Assembly (NCBI GenBank): GCA_951406725.2
Contig: OX597816.1
Location: forward strand, 13,454,001 to 13,518,000
DNA length: 64,000 bases
Direction: 5' to 3'
Origin: Octopus vulgaris
Lineage: Eukaryota
Below the pieces are notes generated by a model. The model ran no database searches and was not told the DNA's origin. It saw nothing but the letters and a program-made list of their open reading frames with translations. Shown here piece after piece: positions 6,350 to 58,073 of the stretch; within the stretch, counting starts at the first letter, position 1; each line of letters starts with the position of its first letter. The translations under genes were made by a program, and so were the position numbers.

Positions 6350-6411
<62 letters not shown>

Positions 6412-6415
<4 letters not shown>

Positions 6416-6758
6416 AATAGTAAAGAGTGAAAAAACGACAGAAGGCTTAAATGTTAAAAAATATATATATTTGTGTCAAAATGTCTGGAGAATATTGGAA
6501 AAATTTTTTCCTTTCCTTAAAATGACATAATTTTATAATTTTTAAAGAAATACCGGTTTCGCGTGTAGCTTTTCAAATTTCTTGTAAAAAATTTGAAAAG
6601 CTACACGCGAAACCGGTATTTCTTTAAAAATTATAAAATTATGTCATTTTAAGAAAAGGAAAAAAATTTTTCCAATATTCTCCAGACATTTTGACACAAA
6701 TATATATATTTTTTAACATTTAAGCCTTCTGTCGTTTTTTCACTCTTTACTATTTTCT
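6412..6758. repeat. Near-perfect 347-bp palindrome (two inverted Penelope-like ends)
   Basis: Arms 6412-6580 and 6588-6758 are reverse complements with very few mismatches, with a 7-nt loop. Each arm carries CGCGAAACCGGTA (3' half of a hammerhead-like motif). It abuts (TA)n. Confidence 0.85.
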
Positions 6759-6798
6759 TATATATTCACCCACGTGCTTTACCAAACAAACTTTCTTA

Positions 6799-8489: not shown

Positions 8490-9148
8490 AAATCCAAAAG
8501 TTATTGGGTTACTGATAGACATGCAAACAGGATTTACAAAATACTGTTGCCTGTTATGTTTACTGTGCAACCGCGAAACCACAATCGACTCTATGTTATA
8601 TGATAGGCCACTAATAACTCTATGTTATATGATAGGCCACTAATATCAACACGTGTCCCAGTAACTAGCACTGTTAATTTTCTCTTAAGGTGATCCATAT
8701 TAAACTTGGTTTACTAAAATATTTTGGAATAGCAAGGGCTAAAATCTTCTCCAGATGAATTCCCAAATGTGAATACAGAAAGTTAAGGGGAAAAGTTTTG
8801 CTAAGGTGCGAATGAAGGAAGTTTTAGATACCATATTTGACCAAAACCGCCATACACTGGAATTATAAGTTTGGCTGACTTTTAACTGGTTATTCAAAAC
8901 CTCTCTGCTGAATAATAATTACCTGGAATATATGAGCGGAATGAGAATGTTTTTTATGCGTATAATGTCATGGTCTATCGAATGTTAATAACACAGTTTC
9001 TATTTTCTCATCTGGAATTTTTACAGATAATTTTAGTGCAGTTAACAGAGGACAAGAAGAACAGTTCCTTCAAGTTATCCATGTTATGAAAACATGGTGT
9101 CTGAGATTTCAGAATGAAAATGCAATGGCCGCCTATTGCAGGATGGAA
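8490..9148 (+). mobile_element. Decayed Chapaev3-like (CMC superfamily) transposase remnant
   Basis: Broken frames give KVIGLLIDMQTGFTKYCCLLC, IHIKLGLLKYF and LFSHLEFF..NFSAVNRGQEEQFLQVIHVM..NENAMAAYCRM. These match the recalled Chapaev3 motifs DLKV..LLGMQ.GFTKYCCFLC, LHIKLGLMKNF and HSHLDFFPENLGAVSDEHGERFHQDI..MMADYCW. Confidence 0.7.
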
Positions 9149-9149
9149 T

Positions 9150-9878
9150 GTTTGAGTTTAACCGCTCACTTCGAGATACAGAATCCCATCCTTATATCCT
9201 TGCTGCACATTTGCACAGTCTCAACCAGCCTCTCCATTTCAGGCTCTGATTTTGTGAACAGTTCTAAATCATCCATAAAGAAAAGGTTGTTGAGACGAGA
9301 TCCGTTCTTTCTCAGCTCACAGTGCACGTTGACTTTGCGTAGGACTAACGAAAAGTGGGATCAAGGTTATAACAAATGACAGTGGTAAACAAGAGTCTCC
9401 TTGGAAGATACCTCTTTTGATTGTTACCTCGACTAAGAGCTGGTTGTTACAGGAAAGACGTGTTTTCCAATAATTTTAAGGTGAAGGAGTACTTTGATAA
9501 CATAGCTCCTCGGTACTTGATCGAGTCTTTATTTTATCGACCCCGAAAGGAAGAGTGGTGATGTTTGGCTTTAGCAGGATTTGTGTATGGGTGGATGGGT
9601 GTGTTCTTAATCAGTGCACACACGTTCTCAACTATTCCACGCATGTCGAGTGTTTCTAAAATCCACGAATGCGGCAACATGTCGTAAGCCTTGTTTTAGA
9701 TTCTATCCAGGCCATGCATAAGTTTTTTGGGTACCGTTTACAGTTCTTCATTATAACCTTGTCTATGACAAGGTGATCCCTGGTGCTCTGGGATCCTTTT
9801 CGGCATCCTTTTTGTTCTACTGATAGTAGATTGTTTTCCGCAAGGAACGTATATATTTTCCCCTGCGAGGATACCTGC
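9150..9878 (-). mobile_element. R4/Dong-clade non-LTR reverse transcriptase fragment (pseudogenised, interrupted at about 9472-9603)
   Basis: Minus-strand translation: EQKGCRKGSQSTRDHLVIDKVIMKNCK..LCMAWI..KAYDMLPHSWI and IKRGIFQGDS..PL..LNNLFFMDDLELF..SKDIRMGF; frameshifts and stops present. Confidence 0.85.
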
Positions 9879-19733: not shown

Positions 19734-20390
19734 TTGAGTTGTCAGACAAATTCGTTAGTTTTTTGTTTTTTTCGATGTTATTTGAATTAACACGTAAATA
19801 TTTTTATCTTAGTGTTTTTCTGTTTTTCTTTTAATTCTTTTTTTTATTATTTTTAGTAATTCTTTTCTTCCTCGTCAACTTTTGTTTATCGTTTTTGAAA
19901 TTTGAATAATTTTTACCTCTTTGCAGACATCGGATAATGGAATGTCAAATAGGAGAAAAATGAACATTTTCAAAACCCACTTCCGTTCGCTTTCAGTCAA
20001 GGTTCCAAAGCTGTCAAAGCCTCGGTATTTCTGTTCAGCAGAGATAAGGCGAGATTAAGCGATTACGAAAAGAACAGCAGAGAAATGGTTTCCAGTCTTG
20101 AAAGAGGAAAATTTCGACTTTTAAAATTTCCAGGTTCCTGTTCAATTCAATTCAATGAGAATCATTTGACGAGCTCATCTACTGTGATCCGTACCAATTC
20201 GCTTGCGGATTAACCCAGCAAGTGGGATTTTCTCACGATGGCGTCGACTGTGACCTTCACTCGACGGCTAAGGACCAAACGACTCGAACTGCAACTCAGA
20301 ACGCTTGTTTAACACGACAAGGCTCTCCACCATTCTCACCATCATCACATTACTAATCTGATCAAAAATACTATTCAGTATTCGGGGTCA
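19734..20390 (+). mobile_element. Decayed mariner transposon (5' TIR plus transposase N-terminus)
   Basis: TIR-like TTGAGTTGTCAGACAAATTCGT. From the ATG at 19937, broken frames read MECQIGE.NEHFQNPLPFAFSQGSKAVKA..ITKRTAEKWF..LKEENFDF, like the mariner HTH region. Confidence 0.7.
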
Positions 20391-20686
20391 ATAAATTAAG
20401 TACCAGTTACGCACTGGGGTCGATGTAGTCGACTTAATCCGTCTGTCTGTCCCTTGTTTGTCCCCTCTGTGTTTAGCCCCTTGTGGGTAGTAAAGAAATA
20501 GGCATTTCGTCTGTGGCTACGTACTGAGTTCAAATTCCGCCGAGGTCGACCTTGCCTTTCATCCTTTCGGGGTCGATAAATTAAGTACCAGTTATGCACT
20601 GGGGTCGATGTAATCGACTTAATCCGTCTGTCTGTCATTGTTTGTCCCCTCTATGTTTAGCCCCTTGTGGGTTGTAAAGAAATCGG
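20391..20686 (+). mobile_element. SINE family B, 5'-truncated dimer
   Basis: Junction AAAGAAATAG|GCATTTCGTC at about 20501. Confidence 0.85.
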
Positions 20687-20822
20687 TATAATAACATTCC
20701 CAAGACACAAGATTTGTTTCAACACTGAAATTCACTCCAAGAATCGTTCAAACATTATCCAAAACCGAAATATTATTAAGTGATTTATTTAAATTATCGA
20801 TAAAAAAAAGGATGAAAACAAA

Positions 20823-21120
20823 TCTTTATATATAAAAGTCAAGTTGTGTGTCTGTCTCCTACAATTTAGATTCCTAACTACTCCCACATTTTTCGGTGCA
20901 GTGTAACCAAAACCGGATATCTTATAGTCGTGATTCATATCGAGCCCTTCTGGGTATTAGCGCGCTTCTACAATGAGTCTACGATTTAAAAAAAAATTTA
21001 CCATTATTTTTTGCCATTTTAATGCATTTTTTTGCTATTATATAAGGGAAGTAACTCTCTAAAAATGCTTATATAGTTATTTCCCTTACAAACCCGAGCA
21101 ACGCCGGGCGATACTGGTAG
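20823..21120 (+). mobile_element. Non-autonomous Helitron (family H1), copy 1
   Basis: A|TC start, subterminal hairpin CCCGAGCAACGCCGGG, end GTAG|T (CTAG in the other copy); near-identical to 33327-33710. Confidence 0.8.
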
Positions 21121-21964
21121 TTATCGATAAAAAAAAAGGATGAAAACAAATGGAAGATAAAGCGAAAGAATTTATCTGACAATCCAATAAATGACATGGC
21201 TTCGAATGAAATCGAACTCCAGTCATTCATATAACCACCGACCTCACCCTCTCACTCGGTTATTTGTATTCTACTACCACAAGTTGCTTCTAAACAGACC
21301 TTCCTTTCAAATACGGTGCAAGGACAATTTTGTTGGAAATCGATTCAAGCATTCTTAATATATCGATTTCTAACTTCGGTACAAAGCCAGGAAATTGATT
21401 AAATCGCCCTTGTAGTTATTTCAACGATTCCCAAAGGAGCAGAAATAAAGCCAACGGCGCTGAGATTTTATCTCAGAACGCACACTGACGTAACTAATTA
21501 CTTGAAGGTATTTTGTCCAATGCTTTACCATTCCCCCTCCCTCCGTCCTATCATATATTAAGAACGCTTATATCATTGAAGTCAGTTCAAATGCAGGCGA
21601 AATTCTTTCAGCTGGGAATTATTTAAACACAGAATCAGACCGTTGTGGATATGAACAGCGTTCAGATAGTTTGTTGGCACGAGATGTTAGAGAGAAGAGC
21701 ACTATGAACTTTCTAATTCATTATTTATATGTGGTAAATATCAATAAATTTTACGAGCATTACTTACACTGCTTCCCAGATTTTCTTGTCATGTTAAACA
21801 AACCCGTTATTATAACATTTGTTATTGCGTTGATTCTTATTCTTCGACCTTTTCCACTTATTTTCTTTTTTCCCTTTATTTTCTTTTTTCTTTATCATTG
21901 TTTCAAGTTATTTATTTGTAGTTCCTTCATAAATATTCGTTAGTAATATTCATACTTGTGGAGA

Positions 21965-22197
21965 ATGGCGGCGAGCTGGCAGAATCGTTAGCACGCCGGG
22001 CGAAATGTGTAGCCGTATTTCGTCTGCCGCTACGTTCTGAGTTCAAATACCGCCGAGGTCGACTTTGCCTTTCATCCTTTTGGGATCTATTAATTAAGTA
22101 CCATTTACGCACTGGGGGGTCGATGTAATCGACATAATCCGTGTCTGTGCTTGTTTGTCCCCTCTATGTTTAGCCCCTTGTGGGTAATAAAGAAACA
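21965..22197 (+). mobile_element. SINE family B inserted at the head of a SINE-D
   Basis: Exact 19-bp TSD AATATTCATACTTGTGGAG at 21945-21963 and 22198-22216. Confidence 0.9.
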
Positions 22198-22210
22198 AAT
22201 ATTCATACTT

Positions 22211-22478
22211 GTGGAGGCGCGTGGCTTAGTGGTTAGGGTGTTGAACTCATGATCGTAAGATTGTGGTTCCGATTCCTGGACTAGGGTGACGCGTTTATTC
22301 TTGAGCAAAACACTTCATTTCACGTTGCTCCACTCCACTCAGCTGGCAAAAATGAGTAACGCTGCGATGGACTGGCGTCCTGTCCAGCTGGTGGGGAACA
22401 CATACTCCATAGAAACCGGGAAATCGAGCCCATAAGCCTGGCTAGGCTTTAAAAATGGGCGCATTTTTTTATTTTTTT
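22211..22478 (+). mobile_element. tRNA-derived SINE family D
   Basis: GTGGAGGCGCGTGGCTTAGTGGTTAGGG head and CTTGAGCAAAACACTTCATTTCACGTTGCTCCAxTCCACTCAGCTG core; TSD AATATTCATA(C/T)TTG. Confidence 0.85.
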
Positions 22479-24033: not shown

Positions 24034-24932
24034 ATTATTTGAAAAATGTTGCCACTAAGGCATTACACAGAGTAGCTTTGCGGGCTGGGCAGGAACATTA
24101 ATAAGATGAATGATAAAAAAGATGAAAATGATATTGATGGGAGAAGACAAAAATGCCCGCCGATTTTTGCTTCTCTAATATATTATTCTTTTTTTTAAAC
24201 ACAAAATGAGGTATTAAACCTCTTACGTTAATTTAACAAATCTTTTGTCTTTCACACGAAAATGAGGCAATAAACCTCTTACACTTTACTGAGACATTAA
24301 TAATCTTGCAGCCTCCTGGTAACGGTGCAGCCGCACTTCGGGTCTCCAAACAAAATAATTGAAATCTTTCTTCGAATAGCACGTTGCTATTCGAAGAAAA
24401 TCATCTTCTTTCATCAACAGTGCCACCACCTGCGGCGGCCAATGATAAGTACCAGTACAGGCCAATTCTATCAGGTCCTGCCCCACCAGAAAACTCCTTA
24501 CGAAGTTTTCAACAACCCCTCCCTTGAAATAGAATACCACATATTCTTTAATTTCACTGGGAAGGTCCACCTCTTCCGCTGTCGGTGGCACGATTCCCAC
24601 CGAAGAGACCTCGGGACATGCCGGAGGTGTGAAATGCACACCTCCGGCACTGTCTCATTCTTTTTTTCTTTTCTTTTTCAACTTTGTTGCGGGAGGGGCT
24701 GGCTCCTTCGCCATATCCTCAGGAACCTCGCCTCCACCCGCAACCTTGGGATCCCTCGGGGAGCAACCATTGTTGCTCCCATTCTTCCTCTTTCTTCCCC
24801 TTTTTCCGGGGGAAGTTACTCCCTCCTCATCCATCTCTCCTTCCGGAAGAGGAGGGGGAGTTCTGCCACAACTAACTGCTCCAGGACTCTGCTCTGGTCC
24901 TGGGGACAGTTTTTCTTAATGTGGCCAGATTC
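24034..24932 (-). mobile_element. 5'-truncated gag/ORF1-only retroelement, copy 2 (zinc-knuckle end, P/E/K-rich linker, ~100-aa C-terminal domain, 3'UTR)
   Basis: Minus strand reads ESGHIKKNCP (second half of a CX2CX4HX4C knuckle), one frameshift, PGPEQSPG..KKKRKKE*DSAGGVHFTPP..KDFNYFVWRPEVRLHRYQEAARLLMSQ* (stop 24286-24288), then a ~250-nt UTR with no endonuclease or RT ORF. Confidence 0.72.
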
Positions 24933-24959
24933 CTAGCCACTGGGCCATTGCGCCTCCAC
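24932..24959 (-). mobile_element. Isolated 28-nt SINE-C head (A-box only)
   Basis: Minus strand GTGGAGGCGCAATGGCCCAGTGGCTAGG matches the family-C 5' end and stops just before GCAGCGG. Confidence 0.8.
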
Positions 24960-32109: not shown

Positions 32110-33326
32110 GATTGGCTTCAAACTTGGTAAAGTAGATTGTTGTGTGTATGTGTACGTACATACATACACATATATAAGCATATATGTATATACATTTATG
32201 TACATATATCATGTTGTGTCTCGAGAGGGTCATTACGCCAATGATAATAACACACGCACTGGTTCGATATCTCATCTTTCTTATTAGTCAATTAGTTAAA
32301 TATCTACCAACTAACTAATCGATTGTTTGTTTAATGTGCTGGGTAAACAAACGGTTGTTTGTTAGTCAAAGTCCTTACGTCGCAAGGTCTGGCTTGATTC
32401 CGTCTGGAAAGACTCGAGGCAGACCTTGAAGAGAGAGAGCAGGTCATTGAAGTGGTCGCGAATAGCAACGAAAGGGCTGTGATCAACATATATTTATATA
32501 TTCATATATTTAAAACTGAGTCCGTATAGTCACCACTCGGAGTTTGTTGTTTCTGATTTTTTCTGGGTAACTGTCACTGAGGAAACGCAGTATGCTGAAA
32601 TCACACGATCTCGTACTTCCGGAGCCCATACTCGTCTGCTAACGATATACGTCTTCTCTTAGTACCGTGCGTCTGTATGATCCATATTGAGCTAGGATAT
32701 AAAGATTGCTGTATTAATGATGCTTCCATCGCAAATATCTGTAATATATATTTATTTACATAGATGTGTGTGCATATCCACTCATACATATACACATGTG
32801 TGCGTATATATATATATATATTTATATATGTATCTATGTATATACATACATACATGCATACGTATATATACACACATATATATGTGTGTGTGTTTTGTGT
32901 ATATAATTTTCTTTTCCCATTTTCCCAAAGATATTTTTCATCCACATTTAGTCGCATATGACAGATCGTCTATAGATTATCGGAGTTGTATTGCCAAATA
33001 TTTACAAAGGTTTAGCAGAGATTAGGATAAATATCTGAAGCACTTATAAGAGTTGTATTTGTAACTTTATAAGATTAACTAAACAAATTTTGAAACCTTG
33101 CCAGTTACAACATCAAGATGGTTTTCACAATGGCTACAAAAATACGTTGATGGGATTTAGTGCCGAAGTTAAATAATACACATTGACTAAGTTCCTTAAA
33201 TATATTTGCATGATAGGAAATGTGTGTGTAGAACAGAAAATGAACGGTGTTGAATATTAAGGCGATGCTGGTGAACAGCGTTCGTGAGTTTATTCATATT
33301 TCAAATAAAATATCGTTATTACTATA

Positions 33327-33710
33327 TCTTTATATATAAAAGTCAAGTTGTGTGTCTGTCTCCTACGATTTAGATTCCTAACTACTCCCACATTTTGCGG
33401 TGCAGTTTAACCAAAACCGGGTATCTTATAGTCGTGATTCATACCTTCTGGGTATTAGCGCGCGTCTACGATGAGTCTACTATTTAAAAAAAAATTTACC
33501 ATCATTTTTTCCATTTTAATGTATTTTTTCGATAAGGGAAGTAACTCTCTAAAAATGTCTACGATGAGTCAACGATTTTTAAAAAAATTTACCATCATTT
33601 TTTTTCCATTTTTAAGGCATTTTTTTGCTATTTTTTGGCTATAACTCTCTAAAAATGCTTATATAGTTATTTCCCTTACAAACCCGAGCAACGCCGGGCG
33701 ATACTGCTAG
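33327..33710 (+). mobile_element. Non-autonomous Helitron (family H1), copy 2
   Basis: A|TC..CCCGAGCAACGCCGGG..CTAG|T; internal ~90-bp tandem duplication relative to copy 1. Confidence 0.82.
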
Positions 33711-34240
33711 TTTCAAATAAAATATCGTTATTACTATATTATGAATATAATTACTTTATTATCAATATTACTTATTTTCAAGAAGCAGTACCAGTGAAAG
33801 TTCCTTGGCCCATTTTGTTGCACAGTGTCAGATATAAACCTTCTCCCCCACTCGGGAATTATACATTGTTATTTCTTTCATAATCCTTTGACTAGTTTCT
33901 AGGAAAACTTATCTATTTCGTTTTCTCACCTAGCTCATTATCTCATTGTGACTTGTACAAAATATTCTTGTCTTCCATCAACGTCCATAATTTGCCTTTT
34001 TTCTTGATTAACAATCCTTGTACGTTCTCACTCTTAATTTCAGCTTCCTCGTTCTTCATGCGATACCTTCTATCTTCCTTTGTTAGTAAGATTTTTTCTG
34101 ACCTAGTATCTCAGTTCAAATATCACCATGATCGACTTAGCTTTTCATCTTTTTTCAGATCGAGAAAATAAACCTCTAATCGAGGTAAATGACAAGCACC
34201 ATCACCAAACCTTTTCGGCGTTGCGCCTATAAATAAAAGG

Positions 34241-39770: not shown

Positions 39771-40210
39771 CTGAAGTTTTCAGTCTCTAGTAGAGTCGAG
39801 TGCTGTAATTTCAGCCATTTATACGCCAGGGAAACCGAATTTATCTGGAGTTTTCAGTCCTCAGGTTAGCAACAGATATAACTCTACGTCTCTAGTAGAG
39901 TCGAGTACTGTAATCTCAGCAATTTATACGCCAGGGAAACCGAATTTATCTGGAGTTTTCAGTCCTCAGGTTGGCGACAGATCTAACTCTACGTCTCTAG
40001 TGGAGTCGAGTGCTGTAATCTCAGCCATTTATACGCCAGGGAAACCGAATTTATCTGGAGTTTTCAATCCTCAGGTTGGTAACAGATCTAACTCTACATC
40101 TCTAGTGGAGTCGAATGCTGTAATCACAGCCATTTATACGCCAGGGAAACCGAATTTATCTGGAGTTTTCCAGTCCTCATGTTGGCAACAGATCTAACTC
40201 TACGTCTCTA
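39771..40210. repeat. Minisatellite, four 105-bp units
   Basis: Units start at 39784, 39889, 39994 and 40099 (TCTCTAGT(A/G)GAGTCGA..). Confidence 0.95.
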
Positions 40211-41190
40211 ATGCTTCTGTCAACAGTCCATCAACGTCGGAAACGACAATAAGATTTTATTGGGAAATAGAAACACATTTTCGTATCACACACACAAAAT
40301 CTCATCAATGGTAAAAAGCAAGCAACTCTTTTCTTGTTTTTGTTTCTTTGCTGTTTTTTTGTTTTTTTTCAATTTCGGAAAATCCGTAGAGATTGGGGAA
40401 TAAAATAGTTGAGCTTAGTTTTAGTTTATTTAACCTTTTGCAAATGATATAATAGTGATAGGAATAAGAAAATCAAGAGCGACATAGAAACACAGCGAAA
40501 AAAACGACACAAGCATTTTTTTTTCTTCTTTTTCTCGCCGCATCGACTAAATAATTGAAAGGGGTAGAAAGAAGGAAACAAAAACAACCGTTAACTAATA
40601 TTAGAGAGAACAATATTGTCCACCCAGCTTTAACTCTGTTCTCGGAAAATTGAGTCAGTCTCTATAGATTCAACGTAGCAAGCAAAAGAGACAGTGAAAA
40701 CTTCAAACAAATTCCGATCTCTTTGCTCGTCAGATAACAATTTTCCTAGTCATACATTGAGCAAATAAACACAGTTTCTACGTTGTTAAAATTTTCCGAA
40801 TCGACAGATTTTCTTGATTTCCCAACGCGAATATTAAAGCATTCATCAACTTTTGTACATATATAATATGTATAGCTATACGTGTTTTCTTTTTTTTTCT
40901 TTTTTAGGCTTCGTATGAAGTCGAGAATATGTGACGCTTATTTTTTTTTTTCACTTGACAATGCGAAAATGTGTTCTATACAAATGAATACGTACAAGTA
41001 TGGTAAATAAAATTTACCTACGTGTTCTTTATTTTTTTATTCTGGTCCAACATAATTGCTTTTCCTGTGATGTTTTCTTGATGTGGTGTGCGCATGTTTG
41101 TATATAGTATGTGCACATCTAGATAAGTATATGGCTGTGTATTCATTTACACATAGAAATATATATACACTTATACATATATACATATAC

Positions 41191-45046: not shown

Positions 45047-45407
45047 TACGAGGATGAGTCAAAAAGTAATGCCATTTTATTTAGGACAGGTATAATTACA
45101 AACACAGGAATATGTATCATACATCAAAATGAAGCTGGTCTTCTGTGGATCACATCCCTACTTCTCAACAGAGTCACCGTTTCTCTCAATAGCAATGTTC
45201 CAACTTCAAAAGAGAGCATGTATCCCAGCCCCGTAAAATTCTGATGACTGTTCTTTGAGCCACTTCTTCACTACCTCCACACTCACTAGATTTAGCGCCT
45301 TCAGACTATCATCTCTTCGGCGCCACGAAAGAGGGTTTGAGAGGCAAACATTATTCCAGTGACGAGGAAGTGGAAACTGTAGTGAAGAAGTGGCTCAAAG
45401 AACAGTC
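45047..45407. mobile_element. Rearranged mariner 3' fragment
   Basis: TIR-like TACGAGGATGAGTCAAAAAGTAATG; minus strand VVKKWLKEQSSEFYGAGIHAL..RNGDSVEK*; plus strand PPHSLDLAPSDYHLFGATKEGLRGKHYSSDEEVETVVKKWLKEQS. Confidence 0.85.
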
Positions 45408-47736
45408 TATTTTCTTAGTTACTGTGGTCACTAGAAAGAAATGACAAAAACAAATAAAAGAATAAAAGAATACACCATCCATAGCATTTAAACACAATAT
45501 ATTTGCTGTACACGGTATTATGTAAATAGACTAATTAAATAAATAACATAATGTACTACTATAAAGTTTTCTAAATTTCAGGACATCTCAGATAAGTATA
45601 AAAAGTAAGTTACGATTCAATATTCTAGCTGTCTCATTAATATGTTATAGTTATAATATACGCAACTAGACAGAAAGCGAGTTATCAAGACTGTTGCAGA
45701 AAAACAAGATAAATAATGCATGTAGCGAGAATATATCACCGAAAATCTGACGCAGAATAATAGATTGTATTTACTACGAACATAGTGAGACATTGGCCAG
45801 GATATTATTATATGACATCAAGTGTAGAAGTAGAAAATTAACATTAATGGAAAACTAATATAAACAGCGATAAATCTTAAACAAGTCAAACAACTTTTTT
45901 TGTCTTTGGTTAAACACAATAAATAAAAAGGACCATTGAAAAGCGAAACATCGTGTAAATATCTGGTGACTTATGGTCATGTGATAAGTGAACTTAGGTC
46001 ATGTGATTTTACGGAACCGATTCTCAGTATCGGCATATTACGGGATAAATAAATAAATAAATAAATAAATGGAAAAGTTCATTTACTTGTATCAGGATTA
46101 AAGTGAGAAAATTGTTTTTTTGGCGATTCTCAATAGACCGTAACATTGGTTCGATTGTTTTAAGTTTGAATGGAAAAACCGTGACAGCAAATATTTACAG
46201 ACCTCTGGCCTGGTCTTCGCCAGAAGTGTCTTTTGTCGGTTTTGAGAATGTTTCCGGGACGCCCTTTCTTCTATATATTGCTTTTACGCTTTGCTTTTTT
46301 TTTTTTTCAAACTCCATCAACTTTATATACTTTATACGCACTTTTGACAAGTTGTGGTGTCCCTGAGCACTATATACAATAATTTCATTATTATTATTAT
46401 TTATTTAACTCAGCATTCTAATTGGAGAAAACTACGAGGTTGAAGAGTATACCTGTGTTTTATAGGTTGTTGGTGTTCTGGTTCTTGTTTTGTTACTTTC
46501 GTTTTTTTGGGTTTTTTTGCCCCTGTGCTAACTGCTGGTTGTTGCTGTTGCTTAAGTTTTGCTGAATAATTTCTTGTAATGGGCGTGGGTTATTTGTTGT
46601 TTCTGATGTTGTTGTGGAGGCTTTGCTAATAGACCAATGAGCTGTAGGATCCATGGCGTATCGTTGCCCTTGCTAAATGTTTTGATTAGGTGACGGTCAT
46701 TCATTGCTTCCTTCCGCTTATCTCTCATTACTTAATTATTTCCAGCTTCACCTCATTTGACGAAGAGCAGGATGAAGAGCGCAGACTATGATGGATGCTG
46801 TAGTGCGCATGTGCTATTTTTGTCATTGTTATTGTTGGAGTTTTAGCGATGATGACATTCCTGTGAAATTTCCTTTTCAAAGATGGAAATGCAATCCTTT
46901 GATGATTTGGTTATAGCTTTCTGTTTCTTGCATTTGCTGTTACTATTCGTGTTTCTGTTGCTGTTGATTTTACTTATATTGCTCATGTTTATATGGCTAC
47001 GGTGTTGGCAGCAAGGAGATCACACCAGGGAAGTGCGGTGAAAACCAAAGCAACACGTAAAACGCCAAAGGCGTTTACGGCCATTTTCTAACCTAAAGCC
47101 ACTCGGGTTGAGGTGGCTAGTGCAACCACATTTATGAAGCCTAGGTCTCCTACTCTTCAACACAAATTTTATCGAATGCCCATTCTTCAAATACATGAGG
47201 TGCGGGTTGGATAATCAGATTGTTTTTAGGTTTTATTAGCATTTGCACCTCTAATTTAAACTAATTATGATGTGAGGTTGTTCTCGAGTTGCCAGTCTCC
47301 CATGTTCCTTCAATGGCATTAAACTTATTTCTGGTAAAACATCGTTAGCTATCACCTTGGTCAATTACTGCTTTATAAAGGACGACTGTAAAACAGTTCA
47401 AACGAGCATTTTTTAAGGTTATTTCCTTGGAGTCCTTTTCATTGAGGCATAAAATCAGTCACTCTATATTACCCCATTTTTTGACACACGGTATGGAACT
47501 CCAAACATCCTTCGTACTCTTTCAATCTGTGCTGGGAGTAGAGTGCTCAAGCTTTCTAATTCTTTTGCTCACGTATCTAGCAGATTGGTGTCAGTGAATA
47601 TTTTTCGTTTTCAACAATTGATAAAGTAATTACGCGATAATAAAATGCCGTCTTTATTTTTGCTCAATGTCTTTTCATTTTCAAGCGAATAATTCAGCCA
47701 TGACATTGTAGACTGAGAGCAAGGTATTGTCTTATG

Positions 47737-50035: not shown

Positions 50036-50220
50036 AACAAATAAAAATGTAGAGACGGATAACCCGAAATGTTACGTATATTAATTTATTAATGGCTATT
50101 TTACTAAAGCTGGAGAATGAAGGGCAACATTATGTCCAGTAAGGTTTGAACTAAGAACACAAAGAAGCGTAACTAAAGACTAACTGATATTTCGTTCAAA
50201 TATGTTATTTTTATTCATAA

Positions 50221-51100
50221 AAGGCGGCGAGGTTGCAGAATCGTTAGCACGCCGGGCGAAATGCGTAGCCGTATTTCGTCTGCCGTTACGTTCCGAGTTC
50301 AAATTCCGCCGAGGTCGACTTTGCTTTTCATCCTTTCGGGGTCGATAAATTAAGCACCAGTTTCGCACTGGGATCGATGTAATCGACTTAATCCGTTTGT
50401 CTGTCCTTGTTTGTCCTCTCTGTGTTTATCCCCTGTGGGTAGTAAAGAAATAGGTATTTCGTCTGTCGGTACGTTCTGAGTTCAAATTCCGCCGAGGTCG
50501 ACTTTGCCTTTCATCATTCCGGGGTCGATAAATAAAGAACCAGTTTCGCACTGGGATCGATGTAATCGACTTAATCCGTTTGTCTGTCCTTGTTTGTCCT
50601 CTCTGTGTTTATCCCCTGTGGGTAGTAAAGAAATATGTATTTCGTCTGTCGGTACGTTCTGAGTTCAAATTCCGCCGAGGTCGACATTGCCTTTCATCCT
50701 TTTGGGGTCGATAAATTAAGAACCAGTTTCGCACTGGGATCGATGTAATCGACTTAATCCGTTTGTTTGTCCTTGTTTGTCCTCTCTGTGTTTATCCCCT
50801 GTGGGTAGTAAAGAAATAGATATTTCGTCTGTCGTTACGTTCTGAGTTCAAATTCCACCGAGGTCGACTTTGCCTTTTATCCTCTCGGGGTCGATAAATT
50901 AAGAACCAGTTACGCACTGGGGTCGATGTAGTTGACTTAATCCCTTTCTCTGTCCTTGTTTGTGCTCCCTGTGTTTAGCCCCTTGTGGGTAGTAAAGAAA
51001 TAGATATTTCGCATTGGGGTCGATGTAATCGACTTATTCCCTTTCTCTGTCCTTGTTTGTCCCCTCTATGTTTAGCCACTTGTGGGTAGTAAAGAAATAT
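50221..51100 (+). mobile_element. SINE-B concatemer: one head, four ~183-bp units and one deleted unit
   Basis: Unit starts at about 50271, 50454, 50637, 50820 and 51004. Confidence 0.92.
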
Positions 51101-55791: not shown

Positions 55792-56060
55792 AGGTGTTGA
55801 GTTCAATTCTCGGCGACGCGTTGTGCTCTTGAGCAAGACACTTCATTTCACGTTGCTCCAGTCCACTCAGCTGACGAAAATGAGTAGTACCTGTATTTCA
55901 AAGGGCCAGCCTTGTCACACTCTGAGTCACGCTGAATCTCCTTGAGAACTACGTTATAGGCACACGTGTCTGTGGAGTGCTCAACCACTTGCGCATTAAT
56001 TTCACGAGAAAATTGTTCTGTTGATCGTATCAGCTGGGACCCACGTTGTAGTAAACGACG
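55792..56060 (+). mobile_element. 5'-truncated D/C-related SINE
   Basis: CTTGAGCAAGACACTTCATTTCACGTTGCTCCAGTCCACTCAGCTG core plus the 3' module seen at 17200-17380. Confidence 0.75.
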
Positions 56061-57273: not shown

Positions 57274-57348
57274 TGCCTGTCCTGTGTATCACGTGTGATA
57301 TACATATATATTTCCCTAGCATCTGTGCATCATATATGATACACATAC

Positions 57349-57745
57349 AAGGCGGCGAGCTGGGCGAAATGCCTTGCGGTATTTCGTCTGCCGTTACGTT
57401 CTCAGTTCAAATTCCGCCGAGATCGACTTTGCCCTTCATCCTTTCGCGGTCGATTAAATAAGTACCAGTGAAACACTGGAGTCGATATAATCGATTTAAT
57501 CCGTTTGTCTGTCCTTGTTTGTCCCCTCTGTGTTTAGCCCCTTGTGGGTAGTAAAGAAATAGGTATTTCGTCTGCCGTTACATTCTGAGTTCAAATTGCG
57601 CCGGGGTCGACTTTGCCTGTCATCCTTTCGGGGTCGATAAATTAAATACCGGTTACGCACTGGGGTCAATATAATGGACTTAATCCTTTTATCTGTCCTT
57701 GTTTGTCCTATCTATGTTTAGCCCCCTGTGGGCAATAAAAAAAAG
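57349..57745 (+). mobile_element. SINE family B dimer
   Basis: Junction AAAGAAATAG|GTATTTCGTC near 57563; TSD ATATATGATACACATA. Confidence 0.88.
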
Positions 57746-58073
57746 ATAAAAATATATATGATACACATATCCATTTTTTAAAACCTCCACAGTAACTTTA
57801 GGCTTTTTGAAGGGAAGTTCTATTACACAGGACGTGTAAAACAAGGGCGAGCTAAAAGTCAGACAACAAGCATGGACGTTTATAACAAACTTATAAAAAT
57901 GCTTTGGACAGGCAAAGGTTTAAGGTTCCGGTTTGAGTAAAAGCTGCATTAGAACATTTCGTATTGACTGCCCCTGGGCTACCACAAATGTCGGAAGACA
58001 TGGATGCTTCATACGTAGCACATTTGATAAAACTTACTCTGGGATCATTGCAATGGATCGCTTTATTCACAGA

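What the first reader, a model, noticed from the sequence alone, without database searches (positions are those of the whole stretch)
20794..21150. Helitron flanked by a 29-30 bp direct repeat
Seen: TTATCGAT(A8/9)GGATGAAAACAAA lies immediately before the 5' TC (20794-20822) and immediately after the 3' end (21121-21150). Established: Helitrons insert between A and T without a target-site duplication. The duplicated segment both begins and ends at an A|T step. Inference: the 5' and 3' ends were joined at two different AT sites about 29 nt apart, a non-canonical resolution of rolling-circle insertion or mobilisation by another machinery.
Basis: partly seen in the sequence, partly recalled or inferred. 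Interest (0 to 1): 0.72.

Follow-up and report, generated by a model that had tools for sequence, protein, structure and literature searches.

The report
Helitron that duplicates its landing site
A small rolling-circle jumping gene, of a kind believed never to copy the DNA it lands in, sits between 28-30-base copies of its landing site at both places where it occurs in this stretch of genome, which may reveal how these elements insert.

Summary
The element at 20823-21120 is a non-coding Helitron1-type element (5' TC, subterminal hairpin, TAG end) flanked by a 29/30-nt direct repeat. The only other family copy in the window (33327-33710; 273 of 284 aligned bases identical) is flanked by its own unrelated, perfect 28-nt repeat. 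In both, the repeated segment starts and ends at an A|T step and skips internal A|T steps. Other repeats in the window carry flanking repeats of at most 21 nt, rarely A|T-bounded; a related complete Helitron from a public contig has none. So the family probably makes a near-fixed 28-30-bp target-site duplication, which canonical Helitrons are defined as lacking. Most likely mechanism (inferred): the Helitron's own RepHel nicks at A|T, peels about 28 nt, host polymerase refills, and the two ends join different copies; staggered opposite-strand nicks are nearly as likely. Limits: two copies, no empty site, no autonomous partner, no genome. Closest precedent: variable TSDs on truncated Fanzor-bearing Helitron2 copies in Chlamydomonas. 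Verdict: new variant of a known kind.

The parts
20794..20822 (+). Left copy of the duplicated target of copy A (29 nt); preceded by A, starts with T, ends with A
20823..21120 (+). Copy A: 298-bp non-coding Helitron1-type element, 5' TC ... GTAG 3'
   Evidence: stops in all six frames
21043..21088 (+). Internal 20-nt inverted repeat upstream of the terminal hairpin (85% complementary); rearranged by the internal duplication in copy B
   Evidence: (I1)
21093..21108 (+). Subterminal 16-nt hairpin of copy A, ending 12 nt before the 3' end
   Evidence: same motif ends a RepHel-coding Helitron in L007
21121..21150 (+). Right copy of the duplicated target of copy A (30 nt, A-run one longer); followed by T
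33299..33326 (+). Left copy of the duplicated target of copy B (28 nt); preceded by A, starts with T, ends with A
   Evidence: (D2)
33327..33710 (+). Copy B: 384-bp member of the same family, 5' TC ... CTAG 3', with an internal duplication at about 93-100 nt spacing (33464-33510 / 33557-33603)
33683..33698 (+). Subterminal hairpin of copy B, identical to that of A
33711..33738 (+). Right copy of the duplicated target of copy B (28 nt, identical to the left copy); followed by T
20779..20793 (+). Host DNA just upstream of the duplicated segment of A; resembles 33284-33298 upstream of B (T-rich stretch about 10 nt before the first junction). Possible target preference, weak
   Evidence: (shuffle p 0.003-0.005, post hoc among 13 tests)

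Best explanation
A non-autonomous Helitron1-type family whose insertion duplicates about 28-30 bp of target, through the Helitron's own RepHel acting in trans. Most likely route (same-strand nick, peel, refill): (1) RepHel nicks the target top strand at an A|T step and stays bound to the 5' T through a tyrosine. (2) Its 5'-3' Pif1-type helicase peels about 28-30 nt of that strand while a host polymerase extends the 3'-OH, re-making the same 28-30 nt. (3) The element's tyrosine-linked 5' TC is joined to the 3'-OH A of the new copy, at a second A|T (re-nicked, or a pause). (4) The element's CTAG 3'-OH is joined to the 5' T of the displaced old copy. The product is flank, copy, element, copy, flank. 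The length would be set by a protein footprint and then snap to a nearby A|T. SHOWN: the product structure at two loci, its length, A|T at all four junction steps, and internal A|T steps skipped. ESTABLISHED elsewhere (Helraiser): ssDNA nicking, A|T targets, plus-strand-only transfer, refill synthesis at donor sites. INFERRED: every step at the target, and that RepHel is the enzyme.
For: 2 of 2 copies carry the duplication, 29/30 and 28 nt, at unrelated loci: left-flank and right-flank alignments are matched by 317 and 313 of 500 shuffles. Both copies are full length, with the same first and last positions. All 8 junction bases fit A|T. Four are expected of any Helitron; the four extra ones have chance about 0.014 from local composition. 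Internal A|T steps are passed over (A: offsets 3, 7, 19; B: 7, 12, 14, 20, 26), so the distance looks measured rather than next-site. Of 40 other repeat segments in the window, 9 have an abutting repeat of 12 nt or more, the longest 21. The 3' end motif is shared with L007, whose frame has 46-57% identity to the 120 listed hits, which bear Helitron-type helicase Pfam domains (PF14214 on 119, PF05970 on all). Helraiser transfers and cleaves only the plus strand at the junction, and its donor site is refilled by DNA synthesis (PMC5876387). Its targets are AT-rich mainly on the 3' side of the nick (PMC4778049), which is the side duplicated here.
Against: Only two copies, and one was picked because it had the repeat. 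The one-sided 95% lower bound on the family's TSD frequency is 0.22 (2 of 2) or 0.05 (1 of 1). No empty site was seen; the decayed-SINE proxy for one was not significant. No RepHel lies in the window, so the mobilising enzyme is unknown. Helraiser makes no TSD, and a related complete Helitron (L003) has none, so the route needs a lineage- or host-specific change that was not identified. AT is self-complementary, so sequence cannot tell same-strand from opposite-strand nicks. The literature treats TSDs as the mark of staggered two-strand cuts. A T-rich stretch about 10 nt upstream with T as first TSD base also matches the RTE retroposon signature. Two lengths within 2 nt has a chance of about 0.11 under a flat 5-50 nt prior, so 'fixed length' is only suggested.
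Confidence: 0.4

Rival explanations
1. Same family-level TSD, but made by staggered nicks on opposite strands 28-30 bp apart, followed by gap filling. Either RepHel cuts both A|T steps (AT reads the same on both strands), or RepHel cuts the top strand and a helper endonuclease (APE-type as in Helentrons, or a Fanzor) cuts the bottom strand.
For: This is the usual origin of TSDs (PMC5876387). Both ends are A|T on either strand. Helraiser cut both strands precisely at its right end in vitro (PMC4778049) and needs dsDNA circles. HUH plus Fanzor cutting was proposed, tentatively, for the Chlamydomonas TSDs (PMC10288648). The shared upstream T-rich motif could be a second enzyme's preference.
Against: Only the plus strand of Helraiser is transferred and cleaved at the junction. 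The element encodes nothing and has none of the Helitron2/Helentron terminal inverted repeats. No helper nuclease was identified.
Confidence: 0.27
2. The element is a Helitron-derived RNA retrotransposed by a LINE, and the repeat is an ordinary TPRT target duplication.
For: SINE-like repeats with TSDs are abundant in the window, and a reverse-transcriptase fragment lies near 9169-9360 (below cut-off). Both TSDs start with T about 10 nt downstream of a T-rich stretch, the signature reported for RTE-related retroposons (PMC6007223). The two sites have 5 and 4 T in the 8-nt window, against a 9% background for 5 or more.
Against: RTE TSDs are mostly 7-15 bp and L1 TSDs 7-18 bp. This window's other TSDs are 12-21 nt, with 2 of 16 ends at A|T. 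There is no poly(A) or microsatellite tail, no Pol III A/B box match, and there are internal T-runs. Both copies start and stop at the exact Helitron termini.
Confidence: 0.12
3. The duplication is not made by the transposase. The element was captured at a staggered break or a fresh tandem duplication during host repair, or it inserted at the A|T junction of an existing tandem repeat.
For: No empty site was available to exclude an earlier duplication. Host-dependent TSDs are suspected in Chlamydomonas, where Helitron2 and Replitron-1 both show them.
Against: It needs two independent 28-30-nt tandem duplications, each hit exactly at the junction. Repair capture would not be expected to keep both termini exact and all four steps at A|T.
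Confidence: 0.1
4. Two separate canonical insertions 28-30 bp apart on homologous or sister chromatids, then a crossover within the element (or one event whose two ends joined different sisters).
For: It explains A|T at both sites with canonical chemistry alone.
Against: It would be rare per locus, yet it is seen at 2 of 2 loci with nearly equal spacing. The reciprocal product (a deletion) cannot be seen here.
Confidence: 0.05
5. Assembly artefact: an overlap of about one k-mer duplicated where an insertion allele and an empty allele were merged.
For: 28-30 nt is close to common k-mer sizes (general knowledge). Raw reads were not available.
Against: The two lengths differ and the two copies at A differ by one base. 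The outer steps are A|T at both loci. None of the 40 other repeat segments shows a repeat of that length. The window has no N.
Confidence: 0.04

Closest known systems
Canonical non-autonomous Helitron1 (e.g. the Helraiser/Helibat system; PMC4778049, PMC5876387, PMC4067079 passages)
   Same: 5' TC, subterminal 16-nt hairpin 12 nt from the end, CTAG (B) or GTAG (A) end, A before and T after the element, no terminal inverted repeats; 3' end motif shared with a RepHel-coding element (L007).
   Different: A 28-30-bp target duplication at both copies. Helitron1 elements are described as inserting into AT without any TSD; the related complete element in L003 has none.
Helitron2 families CRe-1, -2, -3 of Chlamydomonas reinhardtii (Bao and Jurka 2013, PMC3627910 passages)
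   Same: Helitron-superfamily elements flanked by TSDs (about 70%, 57% and 10% of loci), with the target preference kept.
   Different: Those are Helitron2 (asymmetric inverted repeats, insertion after TTTT) and encode Fanzor. Their TSDs are variable (about 7-19 bp, some 44-443) and occur mainly on 5'-truncated copies; copies ending at the consensus 5' end have none, and Helitron-1N1_CRe has 1 in 200. Here the copies are full length, Helitron1-type and non-coding, with 28-30 bp bounded by A|T.
Replitron-1 / Replitron-N1 (Craig 2023, PMC10288648 passages)
   Same: HUH-endonuclease transposon that makes TSDs.
   Different: No helicase, 6-bp direct terminal repeats, RG target, variable TSDs and fuzzy right ends; other Replitrons show no TSD.
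RTE-dependent SINEs (PMC6007223, named sections)
   Same: TSD begins with T about 10 nt after a T-rich stretch.
   Different: TSDs are mostly 7-15 bp, with a microsatellite or T-rich tail and an RTE-like 3' end. None of these fits here; sharing of a 3' end with a host LINE could not be tested.

Membership tests
Helitron1 (canonical) | 5' terminus TC | tested here: met
   Both copies start TC, where homology between them begins. The T could formally belong to the repeat, since each right copy is followed by T.
Helitron1 (canonical) | 3' terminus CTRR | tested here: met
   Copy B ends CTAG; copy A ends GTAG, one substitution. The five locus ends aligned end CTAG, but the search pattern required that.
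Helitron1 (canonical) | 16-20-nt palindrome about 11 nt from the 3' end | tested here: met
   16-nt imperfect hairpin ending 12 nt before the end, -4.5 kcal/mol. It is not stronger than shuffles (z -0.35 and -0.40), but is near-identical to the end of RepHel-coding L007.
Helitron1 (canonical) | Flanked by 5' A and 3' T | tested here: met
   2 of 2 copies.
Helitron1 (canonical) | No target-site duplication | tested here: not met
   29/30-nt and 28-nt flanking direct repeats. That they arose at insertion is inferred; no empty site was seen.
Helitron1 (canonical) | Mobilised by an autonomous RepHel element with the same ends | not testable with these tools
   No RepHel match in 132 window frames by Pfam or by tblastn with 120 RepHel proteins. 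The host genome is not among the collections; the family 27-mer found 0 loci in genome contigs.
Helitron2 / Helentron | [quoted passage not shown] | tested here: not met
   No inverted match of 4 nt or more between the first bases and the last 60 nt; 5' fold only -0.6 kcal/mol.
Helitron2 / Helentron | Insertion in T-runs (TT or T/TC) | tested here: not met
   Both copies are preceded by A.
SINE / LINE-mobilised retroposon | Pol III promoter boxes or RNA-gene head | tested here: not met
   No A or B box match on either strand with simple recalled consensus patterns; no Rfam or tRNA hit in the window.
SINE / LINE-mobilised retroposon | 3' poly(A) or microsatellite tail | tested here: not met
   The element ends at TAG, directly against the repeat.
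SINE / LINE-mobilised retroposon | RTE insertion signature (first TSD base T, T-stretch near -10) | tested here: inconclusive
   First base T in 2 of 2 (also required by the Helitron rule); 5 and 4 T in positions -13 to -6.
SINE / LINE-mobilised retroposon | 3' end shared with a host LINE | not testable with these tools
   No host LINE library or genome available.

The most novel reading that the evidence does not exclude
A Helitron1 lineage whose RepHel integrates through two A|T junctions a fixed 28-30 bp apart, so that most full-length copies genome-wide carry a long TSD. It would be a rolling-circle family with a fixed-length TSD, of which my searches found no earlier report, and a natural readout of how far the transposase unwinds or spans its target.
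Probability: 0.55. Interest if true: 0.85.

Novelty: new variant of a known kind. Interest (0 to 1): 0.72.

Why it matters
Absence of a TSD is part of the working definition of Helitrons, still repeated in 2024-2026 papers, and is read as a sign of single-strand integration. The target-side steps remain a model. A family with canonical ends that duplicates a near-constant 28-30 bp would show that the two ends can be joined at separate target positions. It would give a measurable footprint of the integration complex and make the step testable by comparing its RepHel with Helraiser. In practice, annotation rules that treat 'has a TSD' as 'not a Helitron' would misfile such families, and long TSDs would let single insertions be bounded and dated.

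Tried and rejected
More family copies: none beyond A and B in the window by blastn or nhmmer; 0 loci for the family 27-mer in genome contigs; no match in plasmids or phages. Other Helitron-like elements with a long flanking repeat in the window: 7244 NTRR ends were scanned on both strands; by eye only A and B gave a repeat followed by TC, and the rest were dispersed repeats, microsatellites or tandem units. Degenerate 3'-end scan: 8 loci. L001 and L005 were dropped as chance matches; they are 88% identical to each other over 3.3 kb, GC about 55%, probably a bacterial gene. L002, L006, L007 and L008 have no recognisable 5' end. L004 is a head-to-tail junction. Only L003 could be scored, and it has no repeat. 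Proxy empty site: the target of A resembles the tail of the window's commonest SINE, but 5 to 127 of 300 shuffles scored as well across six SINE copies, so it was not used. Segmental duplication of the two loci: rejected, flanks unrelated. Repeat being part of the element: rejected, the two repeats are unrelated to each other (175 of 500 shuffles as good) and score low against the element. Guide-like pairing between element ends and target: only 5-6-nt matches. Host identification: two protein searches with window frames found nothing; 'octopus' is my recollection of the SINE sequences only. No structure or complex prediction was run, as the feature is non-coding and no cognate protein is in hand.

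Full report
OBSERVATION. The sequence shows a 29-nt segment at 20794-20822 directly before TC at 20823. The same segment, with one more A in its A-run, lies at 21121-21150 directly after the element's last base. The chance of the 21-nt perfect core at a fixed place is 4e-12 from window composition. Of 1500 random placements of a 300-400-bp segment, 13 gave an abutting repeat of 27 nt or more, all in microsatellites or tandem arrays.

THE ELEMENT. 20823-21120 (298 bp) has one relative in the window, 33327-33710 (384 bp). They match at 273 of 284 aligned bases, the second has an internal duplication, and homology starts and stops at the termini. Both begin TC and carry the same 16-nt hairpin ending 12 nt before the end; they end GTAG (A) and CTAG (B). 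The hairpin is no more stable than shuffles (z -0.35 and -0.40), so it is identified by homology. A degenerate scan of genome contigs gave 8 loci, 6 of which look like animal DNA with this type of end. One of them, L007, has a 605-residue frame upstream; its 120 listed relatives (46-57% identity, of 1217 hits) carry Helitron-type helicase domains. All six frames of both window copies are interrupted, and there are no Helitron2-type inverted repeats. These are non-autonomous elements with Helitron1-type ends. No RepHel lies in the window. Pfam found none in 132 frames chosen from 308 of at least 62 codons, with low-complexity and SINE-derived frames left out. tblastn with the 120 proteins hit only 45274-45420, through two proteins that carry an extra transposase-type domain. 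The host was not identified by any search (searches found nothing); from memory the SINEs look like those of octopus.

THE SECOND COPY HAS THE SAME ANOMALY. Copy B is flanked by a perfect 28-nt repeat, 33299-33326 and 33711-33738 (chance 1.5e-15). Again it is preceded by A, starts with T, ends with A and is followed by T. The two loci are independent: their flanks and their repeats align no better than shuffles (317, 313 and 175 of 500 shuffles as good). Of the eight junction bases, four are expected of any Helitron; the other four fit A|T with chance about 0.014. Each duplicated segment contains A|T steps that were passed over, three in A and five in B, which points to a measured distance. 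With two values this is only suggestive: two lengths drawn from 5-50 fall within 2 nt 11% of the time. Because each right copy is followed by T, the repeat could also be read one base longer, with the element starting at C.

CONTROLS. Of 40 other repeat segments in the window, 9 have an abutting repeat of 12 nt or more; the longest is 21 nt. One of the 9, a (TA)n run at 55798, was dropped before counting ends. Of the remaining 16 ends 2 are A|T, against 4 of 4 for the Helitrons (p = 0.003); two of those eight are adjacent and share a repeat, so they are not fully independent. A scan of 7244 NTRR ends found, by eye, no further element with a repeat followed by TC. The one complete Helitron among the fetched loci (L003, 4634-5159, minus strand, 526 bp, similar ends) sits between A and T with no repeat. 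So the trait is not shared by all Helitrons with this end type (n = 1).

AGAINST, OR UNRESOLVED. There are only two copies and one was selected for the trait; the lower 95% bound on family frequency is 0.22 or 0.05 depending on whether it is counted. No empty site was seen, and a proxy based on resemblance of target A to a SINE tail was not significant. The 15-20 nt upstream of the two targets resemble each other (p 0.003-0.005, post hoc among 13 tests). A T-rich stretch about 10 nt before a TSD that starts with T is the signature reported for RTE retroposons (PMC6007223), which keeps a LINE-driven origin alive. Against that origin, RTE TSDs are mostly 7-15 bp, and the element has no tail, no Pol III box match and exact Helitron termini.

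MECHANISM. Shown: the product, flank-copy-element-copy-flank, in which the 5' end is joined at the downstream A|T and the 3' end at the upstream one. One nick on one strand cannot give this without DNA synthesis. Established for Helraiser: cleavage of single strands, A|T targets that are AT-rich mainly 3' of the site (PMC4778049), transfer of the plus strand only, and resynthesis at nicked donor sites (PMC5876387). Inferred, and favoured (0.40): RepHel treats the target like a short donor. It nicks at A|T and peels 28-30 nt while a polymerase refills; it then joins TC to the new copy's terminal A and CTAG to the displaced old copy's T. Nearly as likely (0.27): staggered nicks on opposite strands, by RepHel alone or with a helper nuclease, then gap filling. 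Sequence cannot separate the two because AT is self-complementary. Together, a RepHel-centred TSD stands at about 0.67. LINE mobilisation 0.12, repair capture or prior duplication 0.10, double insertion with crossover 0.05, assembly artefact 0.04. That a protein footprint sets the length is my conjecture; I saw the Helraiser structure paper (Kosek 2021) only as a reference entry.

COMPARISON WITH WHAT IS KNOWN. It works like a non-autonomous Helitron1 and meets the end and A/T criteria. It fails 'no TSD', which the passages I read give as a defining or general trait, so I file it as a variant rather than a plain member. Precedent for TSDs in the superfamily exists. Chlamydomonas CRe-1/2/3 are Fanzor-bearing Helitron2 elements with variable 7-19-bp TSDs, mainly on 5'-truncated copies and absent from copies ending at the consensus 5' end (PMC3627910). 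Replitron-1 makes variable TSDs (PMC10288648; PMC9977147). Ten literature searches showed no report of full-length Helitron1 copies with a 28-30-bp TSD. In one search (2023 onward) none of the 40 listed papers, of 1430, held the 28-, 29- or 30-bp phrases. The library lacks most subscription papers, Repbase and Dfam, and I read no supplements, so a curated note could exist.

PAPERS SEEN. Passages only: PMC4224331, PMC13565253, PMC4778049, PMC10294476, 10.1101/2024.02.08.579435, PMC4067079, PMC13286980, PMC10288648, PMC9977147, PMC3627910, PMC12001565, PMC5148889, PMC13085455. PMC5876387: passages and part 1 of 2 of the Discussion. PMC6007223: abstract, part 2 of 6 of the text, sections 15 and 18, passages. 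All others: search listing only.

VERDICT. A real feature, replicated once within the window, and most probably an insertion-made 28-30-bp duplication by a Helitron family. New variant of a known kind; interest 0.72, limited by n = 2 and the lack of empty sites. One genome-wide count would settle it.

Noticed in passing
window 20779-20793 and 33284-33298: Host DNA just upstream of the two duplicated segments is similar, with a T-rich stretch; the shared motif starts 43 nt before the 5' TC at both loci. Shuffle p 0.003-0.005, post hoc among 13 tests.
   Followed up: partly
window 33464-33603: Internal duplication at about 93-100 nt spacing in copy B, absent from A.
   Followed up: partly
window 6404-6765: 362-bp near-perfect palindrome (97% self-inverted match), single copy in the window; possibly a foldback element.
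   Followed up: no
window 50217-51100: Tandem array of about 183-bp SINE parts flanked as a whole by a 21-nt repeat; similar shorter arrays at 20374-20693 and 57348-57759.
   Followed up: partly
window 21945-22466: Two adjacent elements share one target: the 19-nt repeat around the first recurs, as 14 nt, after the second.
   Followed up: no
window about 8750-9450, minus strand: Decayed reverse-transcriptase fragment (Pfam RVT_1, E 0.002, below cut-off). R4/Dong-like by recalled motifs only; a protein search found nothing.
   Followed up: partly
window 39783-40213: About four copies of a 105-bp tandem unit lying in an open frame of 140 codons.
   Followed up: no
window 45274-45420: Weak tblastn match to the C-terminal part of two proteins that bear an extra transposase-type domain (PF01359); probably a mariner fragment.
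   Followed up: no
window 24289-24933: Overlapping open frames of 122-210 codons in unique, GC-richer sequence with no Pfam match.
   Followed up: partly
L002, L003, L004, L006, L007, L008: Contigs with Helitron-type ends, probably animal DNA, inside bacterial MAGs of the genome collection. L007 holds part of a RepHel gene and L004 a head-to-tail junction with a 986-bp unit.
   Followed up: partly
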